A DNA stretch of 64,000 bases from a virus. Its lineage: Duplodnaviria > Caudoviricetes. This document shows positions 7,162 through 20,861 of this stretch, piece after piece. The DNA is taken from the IMG/VR virus record IMGVR_UViG_3300010356_002264; one strand, 5' to 3'. The notes under the pieces were generated by a model that did not search any database, was not told where the DNA came from, and was given only the letters and a program-made list of their open reading frames with translations. How positions within the stretch are numbered: position 1 is the stretch's first letter; the number at the start of each line of letters is the position of its first letter. The translations under genes were made by a program, and so were the position numbers.

Positions 7162-7247
7162 CCCGGCGTATACCGTTATGGACACGGGGCAGACTGTAAA
7201 TCTGTCGCCTTCGGGTAGGGGGGGTTCGATTCCCTCCGCCGGGACCA
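7162..7247 (+). tRNA. tRNA-Tyr(GTA), C1:G72
   Basis: Loop CTGTAAA, long variable arm, ACCA end. Confidence 0.9.
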
Positions 7248-7619: not shown

Positions 7620-7721
7620 TTACCGACTCCCACGAACGGGCCCTACAAGCACAGGTTCGACTCCTGTACCCTCCACTCTTACGGGGGGCGCGGTTAATGG
7701 TCCGCTCACTCGAGTTGGTAA
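7620..7721 (+). ncRNA. permuted tRNA-like / Y-RNA-like RNA, copy A (no D or anticodon arm)
   Basis: 10-bp terminal stem, CCAC/ACTC internal loop, T arm followed by a closed acceptor-like hairpin. Confidence 0.7.
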
Positions 7722-7724
7722 CAT

Positions 7725-8585: not shown

Positions 8586-8648
8586 CTCAACGGTAGCAGC
8601 GGCGGCCTTTGACACCGCAGGTTGGGGGTTCGAGTCCCTCCGCCCGAA
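8576..8648 (+). tRNA. tRNA-Gln(TTG)
   Basis: Loop CTTTGAC. Confidence 0.88.
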
Positions 8649-8687
8649 CTCACTGAACGTCGTATCACTCGCCACAGGGCGAGTCGC

Positions 8688-8760
8688 TGGGGTGTAGCTC
8701 AACTGGCAGAGCGCCGGTTTCTGAAACCGTCGGTTGAAGGTTCGACTCCTTCCACCCCAA
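8688..8760 (+). tRNA. tRNA-Gln(CTG)
   Basis: Loop TTCTGAA. Confidence 0.9.
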
Positions 8761-10352: not shown

Positions 10353-10417
10353 CTCAATGGCAGAGCACGAAGCTGTTAACTTCGGTTATGGGGGTTCGAG
10401 TCCCTCCTTGGGAGCCA
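10343..10417 (+). tRNA. tRNA-Asn(GTT)
   Basis: Loop CTGTTAA, GCCA end. Confidence 0.92.
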
Positions 10418-10430
10418 GCGACGAAAACAT

Positions 10431-10503
10431 GCCCCTTGTAGCTCACCGGTCGAGCAGCAAGCCGTTAACTTGCCTGTAGTGGGTTCGACTCCCACCGGGG
10501 GCG
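10431..10503 (+). tRNA. tRNA-Asn(GTT), second divergent copy
   Basis: Loop CCGTTAA; one-nt bulge in the acceptor. Confidence 0.8.
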
Positions 10504-12151: not shown

Positions 12152-12228
12152 GTGAACGAAGGCGAAGTGGTCGAGCCCCCTGGCTGTGAACCAGGGCTAA
12201 GCGGGTTCAAGTCCCGTCGTTCACCCCA
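12152..12228 (+). tRNA. tRNA-His(GTG), no encoded G-1
   Basis: Loop CTGTGAA, C73-CCA. Confidence 0.9.
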
Positions 12229-12233
12229 CTCAT

Positions 12234-12311
12234 GGTGGTCGTAGCTCAACTGGCTAGAGCGTCGGGCTGTGAACCCGAAGACGAGGAGTTCGACTCTCCC
12301 CGATCACCCCA
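12234..12311 (+). tRNA. tRNA-His(GTG), with G-1
   Basis: Loop CTGTGAA, C73-CCA. Confidence 0.9.
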
Positions 12312-12312
12312 C

Positions 12313-12390
12313 GTCCCGGTAGCTCAGTCTCAGGTAGAGCATCCGGCTGAAACCCGGAGGTCGGCGGTTCGATTCCGCCTCGGGACACCA
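12313..12390 (+). tRNA. tRNA-Phe(GAA)
   Basis: Loop CTGAAAC, ACCA end. Confidence 0.92.
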
Positions 12391-12391
12391 T

Positions 12392-12464
12392 CCCCTGGTA
12401 GCTCATGTGGTACGAGCGTCGGACTGAAAATCCGAAGATCGTGGTTCGACTCCACGCCGGGGGA
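12392..12464 (+). tRNA. tRNA-Phe(GAA), second copy
   Basis: Loop CTGAAAA. Confidence 0.9.
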
Positions 12465-15282: not shown

Positions 15283-15348
15283 CTCAGCGGCAGCAGCATC
15301 GGCCTTACAAGCCGAGGGTCGAGGGTTCAACTCCCTCCGCGCCTACCA
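15273..15348 (+). tRNA. tRNA-Val(TAC)
   Basis: Loop CTTACAA, ACCA end. Confidence 0.92.
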
Positions 15349-15349
15349 C

Positions 15350-15425
15350 GGCCGCGTAGCTCATCTGGCAGAGCGCCTGGGTCACATCCAGGAGGTAGAG
15401 GGTTCAACTCCCTCCGTGGCTACCA
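15350..15425 (+). tRNA. tRNA-Val(CAC)
   Basis: Loop GTCACAT, ACCA end. Confidence 0.92.
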
Positions 15426-16508: not shown

Positions 16509-16581
16509 GCCGTCGAGGCTCATACGGATGGGCGCCTGCTTGGTAAGCAGGAGGCAGCGAGTTCGAGTCTCGCCGACGGCA
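16509..16581 (+). tRNA. tRNA-Thr(GGT)
   Basis: Loop TTGGTAA. Confidence 0.9.
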
Positions 16582-16584
16582 CTG

Positions 16585-16716
16585 ACTTCGTCCCTCGAGA
16601 AGGCCCTACAAGCCGGTTGGTTCAACTCCAACCTCCCCCACTCTACGGGGGAGACGCCTCGCGGAGAGGCAGCAGACCGTAAATCTGTCACCAATGGTCT
16701 TCCCACTCGACGAAGT
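16585..16716 (+). ncRNA. circularly permuted tRNA-Tyr(GTA)-like RNA, copy B
   Basis: Terminal stem, CCTC/ACTC loop, T arm, closed 7-bp acceptor, D arm, GCAGA-CCGTAAA-TCTGT. Confidence 0.8.
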
Positions 16717-16721
16717 TTCCC

Positions 16722-16796
16722 GCTCCCGTAGCACAACTGGATAGTGCACAGGTCTACGAAACCTGGTTCATGGGGGTTCGAGTCCCTCCGGGAGCA
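16722..16796 (+). tRNA. tRNA-Arg(ACG)
   Basis: Loop CTACGAA. Confidence 0.92.
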
Positions 16797-16798
16797 CT

Positions 16799-16946
16799 AG
16801 CTTCACCCCTCGTGTGGGCCACACACGCGACGCTATCCGGGTTCGACTCCCGGTCCCTCCTCACTGTGGGGGGATTGCCTAACGGTAAGGCAGCAGATCA
16901 ACCATCTGTCGAAAGACGCAACACGGCCCACCCACTCGGTGAAGCT
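16799..16946 (+). ncRNA. permuted tRNA-like RNA, copy C
   Basis: AGCTTCACC/GGTGAAGCT stem, CCTC/ACTC loop, arms in T-acceptor-D-anticodon order. Confidence 0.8.
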
Positions 16947-16982
16947 CACCTTCTACGAAGTGACTATGAAGTCACATCTGGT

Positions 16983-17399
16983 ATGAAGCGCTGCGCGACA
17001 TGCCAGACCCACAAACCGCTCGACGAGTTCACTCGGAACAAGACGAAGAAGGACGGCCGCAACGCCTCCTGTAAGGTCTGCCATCGAGCCTATGTGCGAC
17101 GGCACTACCAGAAGAACAAGGCTTACTACGTCAGCAAGGCGCGAAAGTACCAGGCTGGCATCAAACAGATCATCCGAGAGCTAAAGACGGTCCCCTGCGC
17201 CGACTGCAAGAGGACATACGACTGGTGGGTGATGGACTTCGACCATGCACGCGGCACCAAGAAGTTCACCATATCTCGTATGCAAGGACGTGTCGGTTTA
17301 CAGAACGCACTCTTCGAGATCGCGAAGTGCGACATCGTCTGCTCCAACTGCCACAGGGATCGCACGTACAAGCGGAGGATCGCCTCCAGCACCCCGTAG
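16983..17399 (+). CDS. HNH endonuclease
   Basis: CATC, CKVC, CADC...DFDH...VCSNCH. Confidence 0.85.
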   Translation: MKRCATCQTHKPLDEFTRNKTKKDGRNASCKVCHRAYVRRHYQKNKAYYVSKARKYQAGIKQIIRELKTVPCADCKRTYDWWVMDFDHARGTKKFTISRMQGRVGLQNALFEIAKCDIVCSNCHRDRTYKRRIASSTP

Positions 17400-17412
17400 C
17401 TCTCGTCAAGTT

Positions 17413-17554
17413 CGTTCCGCCCCTCGAGCAGGTCACACAAGCGATTGCAGGTTCGACTCCTGCCTCCCCGACTTCACCGGGGAGTAGCCAAACGGTAAAG
17501 GCACTGGAACAAGGATCCATCAAAAAGCACACGGCCTACCCACTCGGCGGAACG
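17413..17554 (+). ncRNA. permuted tRNA-like RNA, copy D
   Basis: CGTTCCGCC/GGCGGAACG stem, CCTC/ACTC loop, arms in T-acceptor-D-anticodon order. Confidence 0.8.
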
Positions 17555-17560
17555 ACCCTC

Positions 17561-20643: not shown

Positions 20644-20729
20644 GCCCAGGTGGTGGAACTTTGGTAGACACACCGGCTCGAGATGCCGGCGCTCGCGAGG
20701 GCGTGCAGGTTCGACTCCTGTCCTGGGTA
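20644..20729 (+). tRNA. tRNA-Leu(GAG), second copy with C33
   Basis: Loop TCGAGAT. Confidence 0.85.
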
Positions 20730-20777
20730 CCGAGGTACGAAGTATGGATCACTTATGTCGCCCACGAGCAGACCTGA

Positions 20778-20861
20778 GCTCGGGTGGCGGAACTAGGCAG
20801 ACGCGCCGTCCTTAAAACTCGGTGCCCACGTGGCGTAGGGGTTCGATTCCCCTCCCGAGCA
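20778..20861 (+). tRNA. tRNA-Leu(TAA)
   Basis: Loop CTTAAAA; weak anticodon stem. Confidence 0.88.

What the first reader, a model, noticed from the sequence alone, without database searches (positions are those of the whole stretch)
16585..16716. Copy B reconstructs a complete bacterial-type tRNA-Tyr(GUA) broken in its variable arm
Seen: read circularly, it gives GGGGGAG-AC-GCC TCGCGGAGA GGC-A-GCAGA CCGTAAA TCTGT-[long stem]-GTTGG TTCAACT CCAAC-CTCCCCC-A. That has G1:C72, A73, a GUA anticodon and a long arm at the variable position, matching bacterial TyrRS identity elements. The 3' and 5' acceptor strands are joined by only ACTCTAC. Inference: RNase P cleavage plus 3' trimming and CCA addition could give a chargeable two-piece tRNA-Tyr. 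Copy C keeps the same GCAGA/TCTGT stem with a scrambled loop, which suggests the family arose from tRNA-Tyr.
Basis: partly seen in the sequence, partly recalled or inferred. Interest (0 to 1): 0.85.

Follow-up and report, generated by a model that had tools for sequence, protein, structure and literature searches.

The report
Phage Y-RNA-like permuted tRNA mimic
The 132-base element really is a circularly permuted, tRNA-shaped RNA with a tyrosine-type anticodon arm, but it belongs to a widespread, uncatalogued family of tRNA-mimicking "Y RNAs" that pair with a divergent Ro60-like protein which this phage also encodes, so it is most likely a protein-bound tRNA mimic and not a working tyrosine tRNA.

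Summary
**Observation: confirmed.** Window 16585-16716 folds (z = -4.5) into a long closing stem enclosing a T arm, a 7-bp acceptor helix closed by a 7-nt loop, a D arm and an anticodon-type hairpin carrying GUA. That hairpin is 16/17 identical to the phage's own tRNA-Tyr.

**Interpretation: partly supported.**
- The element is one of five paralogs in this phage, and I found over 100 relatives in phages and bacteria (Myxococcota, Planctomycetota).
- All six helices covary. No member reaches the threshold of any Rfam family.
- In 15 of 16 loci where the gene lies in the fetched DNA, the RNAs sit directly upstream of a ~580-aa protein on the same strand.
- A confident model of the phage's copy (pLDDT 88) matches Ro60/Rsr over its full length. 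Pfam TROVE misses it.
- Copy E of this phage lies 113-117 nt upstream of that gene.

So copy B is best read as a new structural variant of the YrlA-type Y RNA. Its closing stem sits at the variable-arm site and it keeps a complete anticodon arm.

RNase P cutting and CCA addition are plausible. M. smegmatis YrlA is a precedent, and 11 of 66 members encode N-CCA. Decoding as tRNA-Tyr is unlikely: B lacks U8, A14, A21 and U33, the family's triplet is hypervariable, and a normal tRNA-Tyr is present.

Earlier scan notes on this family cover this genome only.

The parts
16585..16592 (+). P1 5' strand of the closing stem (pairs with 16709-16716)
   Evidence: All 8 P1 pairs show changes on both sides across the family.
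16593..16598 (+). 5' side of the conserved internal loop, CCUCGA. It carries a CGA(G/A) element like the Y-RNA CGAA motif.
   Evidence: The motif is described in PMC4201824 and PMC12135203.
16599..16605 (+). P2 5' strand (pairs with 16696-16702)
16606..16615 (+). Linker J1 with the conserved YUACAMGC. In most members its last base can act as tRNA position 48 (A15:U48).
16616..16632 (+). T arm: 5-bp stem with loop UUCAACU
16633..16653 (+). Closed acceptor helix: 3' strand CUCCCCC, loop ACUCUAC (first A is the discriminator position), 5' strand GGGGGAG. The predicted RNase P site is 5' of G16647.
   Evidence: All 7 pairs covary. The cleavage site is inferred from the M. smegmatis YrlA precedent.
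16656..16670 (+). D arm GCCU-CGCGGAG-AGGC. G18 G19 are present. A14 and A21 are replaced.
16672..16688 (+). Anticodon-type arm GCAGA-CCGUAAA-UCUGU, with GUA at 16679-16681 and C at position 33
   Evidence: 16/17 identical to the phage tRNA-Tyr arm
16689..16695 (+). Linker J2
16696..16716 (+). P2 3' strand, 3' side of the internal loop (CCACUC, family consensus N-R-ACU-Y) and P1 3' strand
7620..7724 (+). Copy A: minimal paralog with closing stem, loop CCACGA/UCACUC, T arm and closed acceptor only. It has no D or anticodon arm.
   Evidence: 56.6 bits
16798..16950 (+). Copy C: full paralog with loop triplet AAC, and U8, A14 and A21 present
   Evidence: 151 bits
17412..17558 (+). Copy D: full paralog with loop triplet AAG
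   Evidence: 159 bits
16509..16582 (+). tRNA-Thr(GGU), ending 2 nt before copy B's closing stem. Its 3' processing would set B's 5' end.
   Evidence: The processing role is inferred.
16722..16797 (+). tRNA-Arg(ACG), starting 5 nt after copy B and abutting copy C. RNase P at its 5' end would release B's 3' end.
   Evidence: The processing role is inferred.
7162..7247 (+). Canonical tRNA-Tyr(GUA) of the phage. Its anticodon arm is almost identical to B's.

Best explanation
Copy B is one of five paralogs of a phage-encoded Y-RNA-class tRNA mimic.

**Release and fold (inferred).** It is transcribed inside the polycistronic tRNA array. Processing of the flanking tRNA-Thr and tRNA-Arg would release it. 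It then folds into an L-shaped, tRNA-like body whose two ends pair into a 15-bp bipartite stem with a conserved internal loop.

**Partner (inferred from gene linkage and Y-RNA precedent).** That stem and loop would be the docking site for the phage's divergent Ro60-like protein, a helical ring plus a vWFA domain. The protein is encoded at G000:79992-81803, outside the window, with copy E 113-117 nt upstream.

**Processing (inferred).** The tRNA-like body is then exposed to tRNA-recognising enzymes. Host RNase P probably nicks the closed acceptor 5' of G16647, and the new 3' end is trimmed and CCA-tailed. This would give a nicked two-piece RNA held together by the stem, as shown for M. smegmatis YrlA.

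**Role (speculative).** The likely role is RNA surveillance or tRNA-related counter-defence during infection, by analogy with Ro60/Y RNA/PNPase complexes. It is probably not codon reading.

**Shown here:** the structure, the family and its covariation, the gene linkage, and the Ro60-like fold of the protein.
**Inferred:** Ro60 binding, RNase P and CCA processing, and function.
For: **Structure**
- MFE z = -4.5.
- All helices covary in 31 phage sequences (94.4% of cells paired, score 0.74 against about 0.10 for slid controls).
- The same holds in 85 mostly bacterial sequences (94.1% paired, 0.63 against 0.10 or less).

**Family**
- Five copies in this genome.
- Dozens of matches in IMG/VR phages.
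- 85 matches in bacterial genomes, often as tandem arrays of 4-7 copies.

**Linkage to the protein**
- Of 55 loci with full-length RNAs, 16 hold the ~580-aa protein. In 15 of these it lies directly downstream on the same strand, mostly 76-178 nt away.
- This phage has the protein at E = 4e-135, with copy E 113-117 nt upstream.
- G002, Rctr197k, G007 and G010 show the same RNA-then-protein order.
- In four other phages the RNA sits just upstream of a Pfam-positive TROVE gene; in G012 the gap is 43 nt.

**The protein is Ro60-like**
- AF2 model: pLDDT 88, pTM 0.86.
- The top 12 Foldseek hits are all Ro60/TROVE over 533-604 alignment columns.
- VIA-align gives Z 13.9-15.2 over 421-442 residues for Ro60 entries, while VWA-only hits cover about 170 residues.
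- hhalign against phage TROVE proteins gives 94-97% probability.

**Y-RNA logic**
- A closing stem with an internal loop carrying CGA(A/G) on the 5' strand. This matches the descriptions in PMC4201824 and PMC12135203.
- Copies C and D give weak YrlA matches over the T, acceptor and D core.

**Processing**
- The 7-bp acceptor plus 5-bp T stem is conserved.
- N-CCA is encoded in 11 of 66 members, P about 7e-9 before allowing for relatedness.
- M. smegmatis YrlA is a precedent.
Against: - Copy B lies about 98 kb from the Ro60-like gene, so its own link to the protein rests on paralogy with copy E.
- No member reaches Rfam's YrlA threshold. The topology also differs from YrlA: here the closing stem is at the variable-arm position and a canonical anticodon arm is kept.
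- The CGAA motif is only approximated in B (CUCGAG).
- Several carrier phages, some near-complete (G004, G005, G011, G021), show no Ro60-like gene with either profile.
- No binding, processing or expression was shown directly. RNA-library contigs cover relatives of B and C, but contigs cannot prove transcription or show RNA ends.
- The canonical anticodon-loop frame (U33 in 59 of 69, R37 in 62 of 69) is conserved more strongly than a pure protein scaffold would seem to need.
Confidence: 0.68

Rival explanations
1. First reader's model. RNase P, 3' trimming and CCA addition produce a two-piece tRNA-Tyr. Host TyrRS charges it and it decodes UAY codons for the phage.
For: - Complete cloverleaf with G1:C72, A at the discriminator position, GUA, and a long arm at the variable site.
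- Anticodon arm 16/17 identical to the phage tRNA-Tyr.
- Un-permuted, trimmed B is called tRNA-Tyr by ARAGORN.
- RNase P and CCA processing of a closed acceptor has a precedent.
- CCA is encoded in part of the family.
Against: - B has C33, A8, C14 and G21 in place of U33, U8, A14 and A21.
- Relatives of B change position 33 from C to G, never to U.
- Sisters C and D carry A34 triplets and also lack U33.
- The triplet changes completely between near-identical relatives while the body is unchanged. That does not fit aaRS identity rules.
- D and T arms are nearly invariant across all 'anticodons'.
- A canonical tRNA-Tyr(GUA) is already present.
- 7-nt and 10-nt linkers plus a 15-bp arm are unlike any class II tRNA.
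- The family is linked to Ro60-like genes.
Confidence: 0.07
2. Ro60-independent decoy. The array copies (A-D) act alone as tRNA look-alikes. They would soak up or mislead host tRNA-targeting factors, such as anticodon nucleases or tRNA-sensing defence systems. The fast-evolving triplet would track the specificity of those factors.
For: - The canonical anticodon-loop frame is conserved while the triplet is hypervariable.
- L105 and L119 differ only in the triplet and the acceptor loop.
- The copies lie inside tRNA arrays of large phages.
- Several carriers have no detectable Ro60-like gene.
- B mimics tRNA-Tyr but would not decode.
Against: - The closing stem and its internal loop are conserved in the array copies exactly as in the Ro60-adjacent copy E and the bacterial operon copies. 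This argues for the same protein partner.
- Bacterial chromosomal arrays upstream of the Ro60-like gene are hard to explain as anti-defence decoys.
- No nuclease target was identified.
Confidence: 0.13
3. True permuted tRNA gene matured as in Cyanidioschyzon or archaea. The closing stem is cut in its conserved internal loop and the ends are ligated, for example by RtcB. The acceptor loop is then opened, giving a contiguous class II tRNA.
For: - The 3' half precedes the 5' half.
- The two sides of the internal loop are similar (CCUC... and CCAC...), so it looks pseudo-symmetric.
- An earlier first-reader note mentions rtcB in this genome.
- G002 and G008 encode RtcB.
Against: - There is no bulge-helix-bulge geometry. 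An alternative 4-nt bulge / 4-bp / 4-nt bulge pairing works for B and D but breaks in C (by inspection).
- RtcB is absent from the held 203-kb record and from 17 of 19 carriers.
- Bacteria and phages lack the splicing endonuclease (general knowledge).
- Copy A has no D or anticodon arm, so it cannot mature into a tRNA.
- The Ro60 linkage remains unexplained.
Confidence: 0.04
4. Copy B is a decaying, functionless duplicate of the Ro60-adjacent copy E. It is carried along in the tRNA array.
For: - B deviates from conserved tRNA core bases (U8, A14, A21, U33) that C and D partly keep.
- It lies far from the Ro60-like gene.
Against: - All 36 base pairs are intact in B.
- E shares the same D arm and the same A8/C14/G21, so this is a lineage feature and not decay.
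- Relatives 90-95% alike retain B. The listed differences fall in loops, linkers, a pair-improving change in the anticodon stem, and four P2 5'-strand positions whose partners were not covered.
Confidence: 0.05

Closest known systems
YrlA-type bacterial and phage Y RNAs (Rfam RF02553; Chen et al. 2014, PMC4201824; structure preprint 10.1101/312249)
   Same: - The 5' and 3' ends pair into a stem with an internal loop carrying a CGA(A)-type motif.
- The tRNA-like module has a T arm, an acceptor helix closed by a loop, and a D arm.
- The RNAs are encoded just upstream of a Ro60-type gene on the same strand, often in several copies.
- They occur in phage tRNA arrays.
- A 7-bp acceptor makes an RNase P and CCA substrate, as in M. 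smegmatis YrlA.
   Different: - In YrlA the closing stem continues the anticodon stem, and a V hairpin may precede the T arm. Here a complete 5-bp/7-nt anticodon arm is kept and the closing stem leaves from the variable-arm site through 7-16-nt linkers.
- Scores against RF02553 are at most 22 bits for this phage's copies (threshold 69). Copy B gives no hit.
- The partner protein is a Ro60 clade that Pfam TROVE does not detect.
Thermus phage phiLo Ro60 with Yrl1/Yrl2 (PMC12135203; PDB 9KOP, 9L5Y)
   Same: - A phage-encoded Ro60 ring plus vWFA domain, with phage-encoded Y-RNA-like partners upstream of the gene.
- 9KOP is the top structural match of this phage's protein.
   Different: - As described there, phiLo Yrls are stem/bulge/stem RNAs and are not full cloverleaf mimics.
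- Protein identity in the structural alignment is about 16-17%.
Permuted tRNA genes of Cyanidioschyzon merolae and some archaea
   Same: The gene order is circularly permuted: the T arm and 3' acceptor strand come before the 5' acceptor strand, D arm and anticodon arm.
   Different: - Those genes mature through a bulge-helix-bulge motif, a splicing endonuclease and a ligase into ordinary decoding tRNAs. No such motif or enzyme is evident here.
- Here one body carries many different triplets.
- The RNAs here are linked to Ro60.
Two-piece (permuted) tmRNA
   Same: A bacterial precedent for a permuted tRNA-like domain that is cut between the acceptor strands, CCA-ended and held together by base pairing.
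   Different: - There is no tag reading frame or pseudoknots, and ARAGORN finds no tmRNA.
- G3:U70 is present only in copy C, not in B.
Canonical bacterial tRNA-Tyr
   Same: - The GCAGA/UCUGU anticodon stem and the GUAAA part of the loop.
- G1:C72 and A at the discriminator position.
- An arm at the variable position.
   Different: - Permuted order with a closed acceptor.
- C33, A8, C14 and G21.
- Very long linkers and stem.

Membership tests
Y RNA / YrlA class | Encoded within a few kb of a Ro60 ortholog, on the same strand | tested here: met
   Met for the family and for paralog E: 113-117 nt upstream of the Ro60-like gene, and 15 of 16 loci. Copy B itself lies about 98 kb away, so it qualifies only through paralogy.
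Y RNA / YrlA class | 5'/3' closing stem with an internal loop bearing GNCGAAN0-1G (the CGAA motif) on the 5' strand | tested here: inconclusive
   The stem and a 6x6 loop are present and conserved. B has CUCGAG, copy A has CACGAA, and many bacterial members have CGAA, CGAG or CGAC. The match is approximate, not exact.
Y RNA / YrlA class | tRNA-like module: T arm, acceptor helix closed by a loop, D arm | tested here: met
   The YrlA model aligns exactly to this core in copies C and D.
Y RNA / YrlA class | Closing stem occupies the anticodon-stem position (Rfam RF02553 consensus structure) | tested here: not met
   The consensus is seen. Here a separate 5-bp/7-nt anticodon arm follows the D arm, and the closing stem sits at the variable-arm site.
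Y RNA / YrlA class | Reaches the Rfam gathering score (69 bits) | tested here: not met
   B gives no hit; C and D give 22 bits. No family member reaches it. Ro60-adjacent RNAs of the cultured phages Neville and RHph_Y65 also score only 34-44 bits.
Y RNA / YrlA class | Bound by Ro60 | not testable with these tools
   Needs RIP, CLIP or EMSA.
Ro60 / TROVE protein (the partner) | Helical-repeat ring followed by a vWFA domain with a MIDAS motif | tested here: met
   AF2 pLDDT 88. Foldseek's top 12 hits are Ro60 over the full length. VIA-align Z is 13.9-15.2 over 421-442 residues. VWA_2 is detected and a DxSxS motif is present.
Ro60 / TROVE protein (the partner) | Matches Pfam TROVE (PF05731) | tested here: not met
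   Only profile-profile comparison (94% probability) and structure comparison link it to Ro60.
Functional bacterial tRNA-Tyr | Free 5' and 3' acceptor ends in one contiguous cloverleaf | tested here: not met
   The order is permuted and the acceptor is closed by ACUCUAC. ARAGORN and Rfam tRNA do not detect the native order.
Functional bacterial tRNA-Tyr | GUA anticodon in a 7-nt loop with U33 and R37 | tested here: not met
   The loop is CCGUAAA. GUA and A37 are present but position 33 is C, and it is G in relatives.
Functional bacterial tRNA-Tyr | Universal core bases U8, A14, G18 G19, A21 and the T-loop | tested here: not met
   B has A8, C14 and G21. G18 G19 and the T-loop are present.
Functional bacterial tRNA-Tyr | TyrRS identity set: A73, G1:C72, G34/U35, long variable arm | tested here: inconclusive
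   The bases are present in sequence. The arm is a 15-bp bipartite stem on 7-nt and 10-nt linkers. Charging cannot be tested here.
Permuted tRNA genes (C. merolae and archaeal type) | Bulge-helix-bulge motif at the joined termini, for a splicing endonuclease | tested here: not met
   The loop is a 6x6 internal loop. An alternative 4/4/4 pairing fits B and D but not C (by inspection).
Two-piece tmRNA | Tag reading frame, and detection by ARAGORN as permuted tmRNA | tested here: not met
   (no tmRNA in the window). The element is only 132 nt and has no ORF.

The most novel reading that the evidence does not exclude
After RNase P nicking and CCA addition, the RNA is a genuine aminoacyl acceptor (Tyr for copy B), or a specific molecular decoy whose hypervariable 'anticodon' is tuned to particular host tRNA-recognising factors. 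The Ro60-like ring would then be coupled to a programmable, tRNA-identity-specific module. That would be a new way for phages and Myxococcota to sense, protect or sabotage individual tRNA species.
Probability: 0.12. Interest if true: 0.85.

Novelty: new variant of a known kind. Interest (0 to 1): 0.6.

Why it matters
Y RNAs that mimic tRNA are known, but only as partial mimics tied to Pfam-recognisable Ro60. Four things here go beyond that.
- There is a second, topologically different Y-RNA design: an essentially complete permuted cloverleaf that keeps a canonical anticodon loop with a free-running triplet.
- There is a large Ro60-like protein clade (over 1000 homologs, annotated only as 'VWA domain-containing protein') that current domain models miss.
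- The pair is widespread, in chromosomal tandem arrays of Myxococcota and Planctomycetota and in the tRNA arrays of large phages.
- No Rfam family reaches its threshold on the RNA.

Why a Ro60 partner RNA should look like tRNA is an open question. Culturable Myxococcus species carry the protein family, so the module can probably be studied genetically there. The conserved anticodon-loop frame with a variable triplet is a concrete handle for experiments.

For genome annotation, it explains unannotated ~140-nt gaps in phage tRNA arrays. It also warns that tandem tRNA pairs give spurious YrlA-like hits.

Tried and rejected
- **Pfam TROVE search of the genome** found nothing. This was misleading, because the phage's Ro60-like protein is too divergent for that model. 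It was found only via the bacterial operon partner.
- **Weak YrlA hits across the genome** are mostly junctions of tandem isoacceptor tRNAs (Gln-Gln, Val-Val, Phe-Phe, His-His, Asn-Asn, Leu-Leu). They are not Y RNAs.
- **First viral pattern scan** (T-loop plus CCCACUCG) returned mostly chance or tandem-tRNA loci. A T-to-D spacing pattern worked better.
- **RtcB and CCA-adding enzyme as consistent phage-encoded partners:** each is in only 2 of 19 carriers and neither is in the held record of this genome.
- **First structure prediction** with 6 close homologs was unusable (pLDDT 51).
- **Sequence searches of the PDB** (phmmer and profile) found only VWA domains. NCBIfam gave nothing useful.
- **Distant tail hits of the exhaustive phmmer search** were not Pfam TROVE proteins.
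- **Public sequencing runs:** only Logan contigs were available. RNA-library contigs from wastewater and sludge studies cover relatives of B and C (90-95% alike), but they cannot show transcription, RNA ends or nicking.
- **The Oct 2026 preprint on three tRNA-mimic families** (skipping-rope, DUF2693-FD, salivarius-1) does not cover this RNA.
- **Pfam on the ORF between copies C and D** gave no significant family. 'HNH-like' rests on a motif read by eye.
Full report
**1. The observation**

The window is part of a 203-kb viral contig (IMG/VR, 83% complete). It holds 43 tRNA genes. The claimed element lies between tRNA-Thr (16509-16582) and tRNA-Arg (16722-16797).

Read 5' to 3', it contains:
- an 8-bp outer stem (P1);
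- a 6x6 internal loop, CCUCGA opposite CCACUC;
- a 7-bp inner stem (P2);
- a 10-nt linker;
- a canonical T arm;
- a 7-bp acceptor helix whose strands are joined by ACUCUAC;
- two bases, a D arm, one A;
- a 5-bp/7-nt hairpin, GCAGA-CCGUAAA-UCUGU;
- a 7-nt linker, then the return strands.

All 36 pairs are standard pairs. RNAfold finds the same fold at -55.1 kcal/mol, z = -4.5, with 0 of 200 shuffles as good. So the sequence-level observation is correct and is not due to chance.

Two things were glossed over. First, the 'long stem' is attached by long single-stranded linkers. Second, four near-universal tRNA bases are replaced: A8, C14, G21 and C33.

**2. It is a family**

A covariance model built from three copies (R1) finds five copies in the genome:
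- B, C (16798-16950) and D (17412-17558);
- a minimal copy A (7620-7724) that lacks the D and anticodon arms;
- copy E, outside the window at G000:81917-82055.

Pattern scans followed by R1 searches recovered relatives in many IMG/VR phages with GC from 0.31 to 0.61. These are nearly always inside tRNA arrays. R1 also found 85 matches in bacterial genomes, especially Myxococcota and Planctomycetota. These are often tandem arrays of 4-7 units.

All six helices covary, including the closing stem and the closed acceptor.

| Alignment | Cells paired | Covariation score | Slid controls |
|---|---|---|---|
| A2, 31 phage-collection matches | 94.4% | 0.74 | about 0.10 |
| A3, 85 mostly bacterial matches | 94.1% | 0.63 | 0.10 or less |

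These alignments are fitted to the model, which favours the structure. The margin is still very large, and 33 of 36 pairs show changes on both sides.

No Rfam 15 family reaches its threshold on any member.

**3. How tRNA-like is it?**

Across the family:
- the hairpin after the D arm has a 7-nt loop;
- the loop keeps the canonical frame, with Y32 in 60 of 69, U33 in 59 of 69, R37 in 62 of 69 and A38 in 44 of 69;
- U8 and A26 are conserved;
- the last linker base usually fits an A15:U48 Levitt pair.

The triplet, however, is free: more than 25 different triplets occur. L105 and L119 are otherwise near-identical but carry UUU and GCU. [quoted passage not shown] One body carrying many 'anticodons' is the opposite of what aminoacyl-tRNA synthetase identity would require of decoding tRNAs.

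**4. The tRNA-Tyr claim**

B's hairpin is 16/17 identical to the anticodon arm of the phage's own tRNA-Tyr (7162-7247). The next best phage tRNA scores 11/17. Copies C and E are also closest to tRNA-Tyr, at 11/17 and 12/17. Tyr ancestry of that arm, or gene conversion from tRNA-Tyr, is therefore credible for B, C, E, L124 and L126. It is not credible for the family as a whole.

Un-permuted B with a trimmed variable region is called tRNA-Tyr(gta) by ARAGORN. With its real linkers it is not. Relatives of B in public assemblies keep GUA but change position 33 from C to G.

**5. The partner protein**

Directly downstream of most bacterial arrays, on the same strand, lies a conserved ~580-aa protein. 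Its only Pfam hit is a C-terminal VWA domain. It has over 1000 homologs, which sources name only 'VWA domain-containing protein'.

Of 55 loci with full-length RNAs, 16 contain this gene. In 15 of them it is immediately downstream, typically 76-178 nt away.

The phage encodes a clear homolog (E = 4e-135) at G000:79992-81803. Copy E lies 113-117 nt upstream on the same strand.

Other phages show the same order:

| Phage record | Arrangement |
|---|---|
| G002 | RNA upstream of the protein, same strand |
| Rctr197k (KX853510) | RNA upstream of the protein, same strand |
| G007 | RNA 145 nt upstream |
| G010 | RNA about 975 nt upstream |
| G012-G015 | single RNA copy just upstream of a Pfam-positive TROVE gene (43 nt in G012) |

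A 43-sequence alignment gave a confident model (pLDDT 88, pTM 0.86).
- Foldseek's 12 best PDB matches are all Ro60/TROVE proteins, aligned over the full length: Xenopus and human Ro60, D. radiodurans Rsr, and Thermus phage phiLo Ro60. After them come only isolated VWA domains.
- VIA-align gives Z 13.9-15.2 over 421-442 residues for the Ro60 entries.
- Profile-profile comparison with phage TROVE proteins gives 94-97% probability.

The protein is therefore a divergent Ro60-like ring plus vWFA domain that Pfam TROVE misses. A tblastn search with one phage TROVE protein matched only 95 of 50,697 phage records. That is a rough lower bound on how common Ro60-type genes are in phages.

**6. What it is**

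Three features define Y RNAs of the YrlA type (PMC4201824; PMC12135203):
- the RNAs are encoded just upstream of a Ro60-type gene;
- the ends pair into a stem with a conserved internal loop bearing a CGA(A/G) element;
- the body imitates tRNA with a closed acceptor.

The family here meets these features. It differs in one tested feature. In the Rfam YrlA consensus the closing stem continues the anticodon stem. Here a full anticodon arm is retained and the closing stem leaves from the variable-arm site. I therefore file it as a new structural variant of the Y-RNA/YrlA kind, and not as a member of RF02553.

**7. How it most likely works**

Shown here:
- the structure;
- the family and its covariation;
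- the gene linkage;
- the Ro60-like fold.

Inferred:
- Release from the polycistronic tRNA transcript by processing of the flanking tRNAs. B starts 2 nt after tRNA-Thr and ends 5 nt before tRNA-Arg.
- Docking of the Ro60-like protein on the stem and loop.
- RNase P nicking 5' of G16647, followed by CCA addition.

The nicking step has three supports:
- The M. smegmatis YrlA precedent. Its authors attribute that cleavage to its 7-bp acceptor.
- Strict conservation here of a 7-bp acceptor stacked on a 5-bp T stem.
- N-CCA encoded right after the acceptor 3' strand in 11 of 66 full-length members, against about 1 expected (the sequences are related, so the P value is optimistic).

Only 12 of the 42 plus-strand tRNAs encode CCA. 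A CCA-adding activity, presumably the host's, must therefore act on phage transcripts anyway.

The function beyond this is speculative. It could be RNA quality control with host exonucleases, as in Ro60/Y RNA/PNPase complexes, or tRNA-directed counter-defence.

**8. Rivals**

- A decoding two-piece tRNA-Tyr is unlikely, for the reasons in sections 3 and 4 and because a canonical tRNA-Tyr is present.
- A Ro60-independent decoy role for the array copies cannot be excluded. It would fit the hypervariable triplet. Some near-complete carriers show no Ro60-like gene.
- A Cyanidioschyzon-type cut-and-ligate maturation lacks a bulge-helix-bulge motif and a consistent ligase.
- Decay is unlikely, because B's pairs are all intact and it is retained in relatives.

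**9. Expression**

Only assembled contigs of public runs were available. RNA-library contigs from wastewater and sludge studies cover relatives of B and C. This is a weak hint and says nothing about RNA ends.

**10. Verdict**

The element is a paralog of an uncatalogued, widespread Y-RNA-like family that partners a divergent Ro60 clade. It is a new variant of a known kind, and of good interest to RNA biologists.

Noticed in passing
G000:79992-81803 (- strand), outside the window; locus L290:1459-3270: The phage encodes a 603-aa Ro60-like protein (helical ring plus vWFA) that Pfam TROVE misses. RNA copy E lies in the ~290-nt gap upstream. Further upstream is a 360-aa ORF with no Pfam match, and beyond it an open frame of about 870 aa with a weak VWA-like match (G000:83502-83756).
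   Followed up: partly
window 16983-17399 (+): A 138-aa Cys-rich ORF lies between copies C and D. It has an HNH-like motif by eye (DFDH ... CSNCH) but no significant Pfam match. In a relative's contig, C is joined to D with only 21 other bases in place of 16946-17413, so the ORF looks like a mobile insertion.
   Followed up: partly
window 7620-7724 (+): Copy A is a minimal version of the family: closing stem, internal loop, T arm and closed acceptor only. So the D and anticodon arms are dispensable for at least one paralog. Its loop reads CCACGA, followed by A, giving an exact CGAA.
   Followed up: partly
window 8599-8736, 10362-10490, 12201-12260, 12343-12452, 15317-15374, 20686-20831: Junctions of tandem isoacceptor tRNAs (T arm and acceptor of one, acceptor and D arm of the next) give spurious sub-threshold YrlA hits of up to 31 bits. 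This is a trap when hunting for Y RNAs in tRNA arrays.
   Followed up: yes
L227:1979-3051, L241:2504-3532, L190:5313-6902, L237:2069-3239, L178:5613-6312: Myxococcota genomes carry tandem arrays of 4-7 of these ~145-nt tRNA-like units. In three of these five loci (L227, L241, L178) the Ro60-like gene follows within about 180 nt; it is not in the fetched DNA of L190 or L237. Some Archangium loci (L184, L191) have 2 copies followed by an M1 peptidase gene instead.
   Followed up: partly
L105:8741-8887 and L119:8550-8701: Two near-identical Ro60-adjacent RNAs differ in all three 'anticodon' bases (UUU and GCU) and in the acceptor loop (GCGUU and GCCAAAAAUU). This suggests targeted diversification of exactly these two loops.
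   Followed up: no
L165:6072-6199 (Arthrobacter phage Atuin), L166:3073-3344 (Rhizobium phage RHph_Y65), L168:2899-3015 (Gordonia phage Neville): Cultured Ro60-encoding phages have unannotated Y-RNA-like elements next to the Ro60 gene, inside their tRNA arrays. All score below Rfam's YrlA threshold (34-44 bits with YrlA, or 39 bits with R1 in Atuin).
   Followed up: partly
window 16633-16653 in copy C equivalent (16798-16950): Copy C's closed acceptor carries a G3:U70 pair, the alanine identity element used by tmRNA. B and D do not.
   Followed up: no
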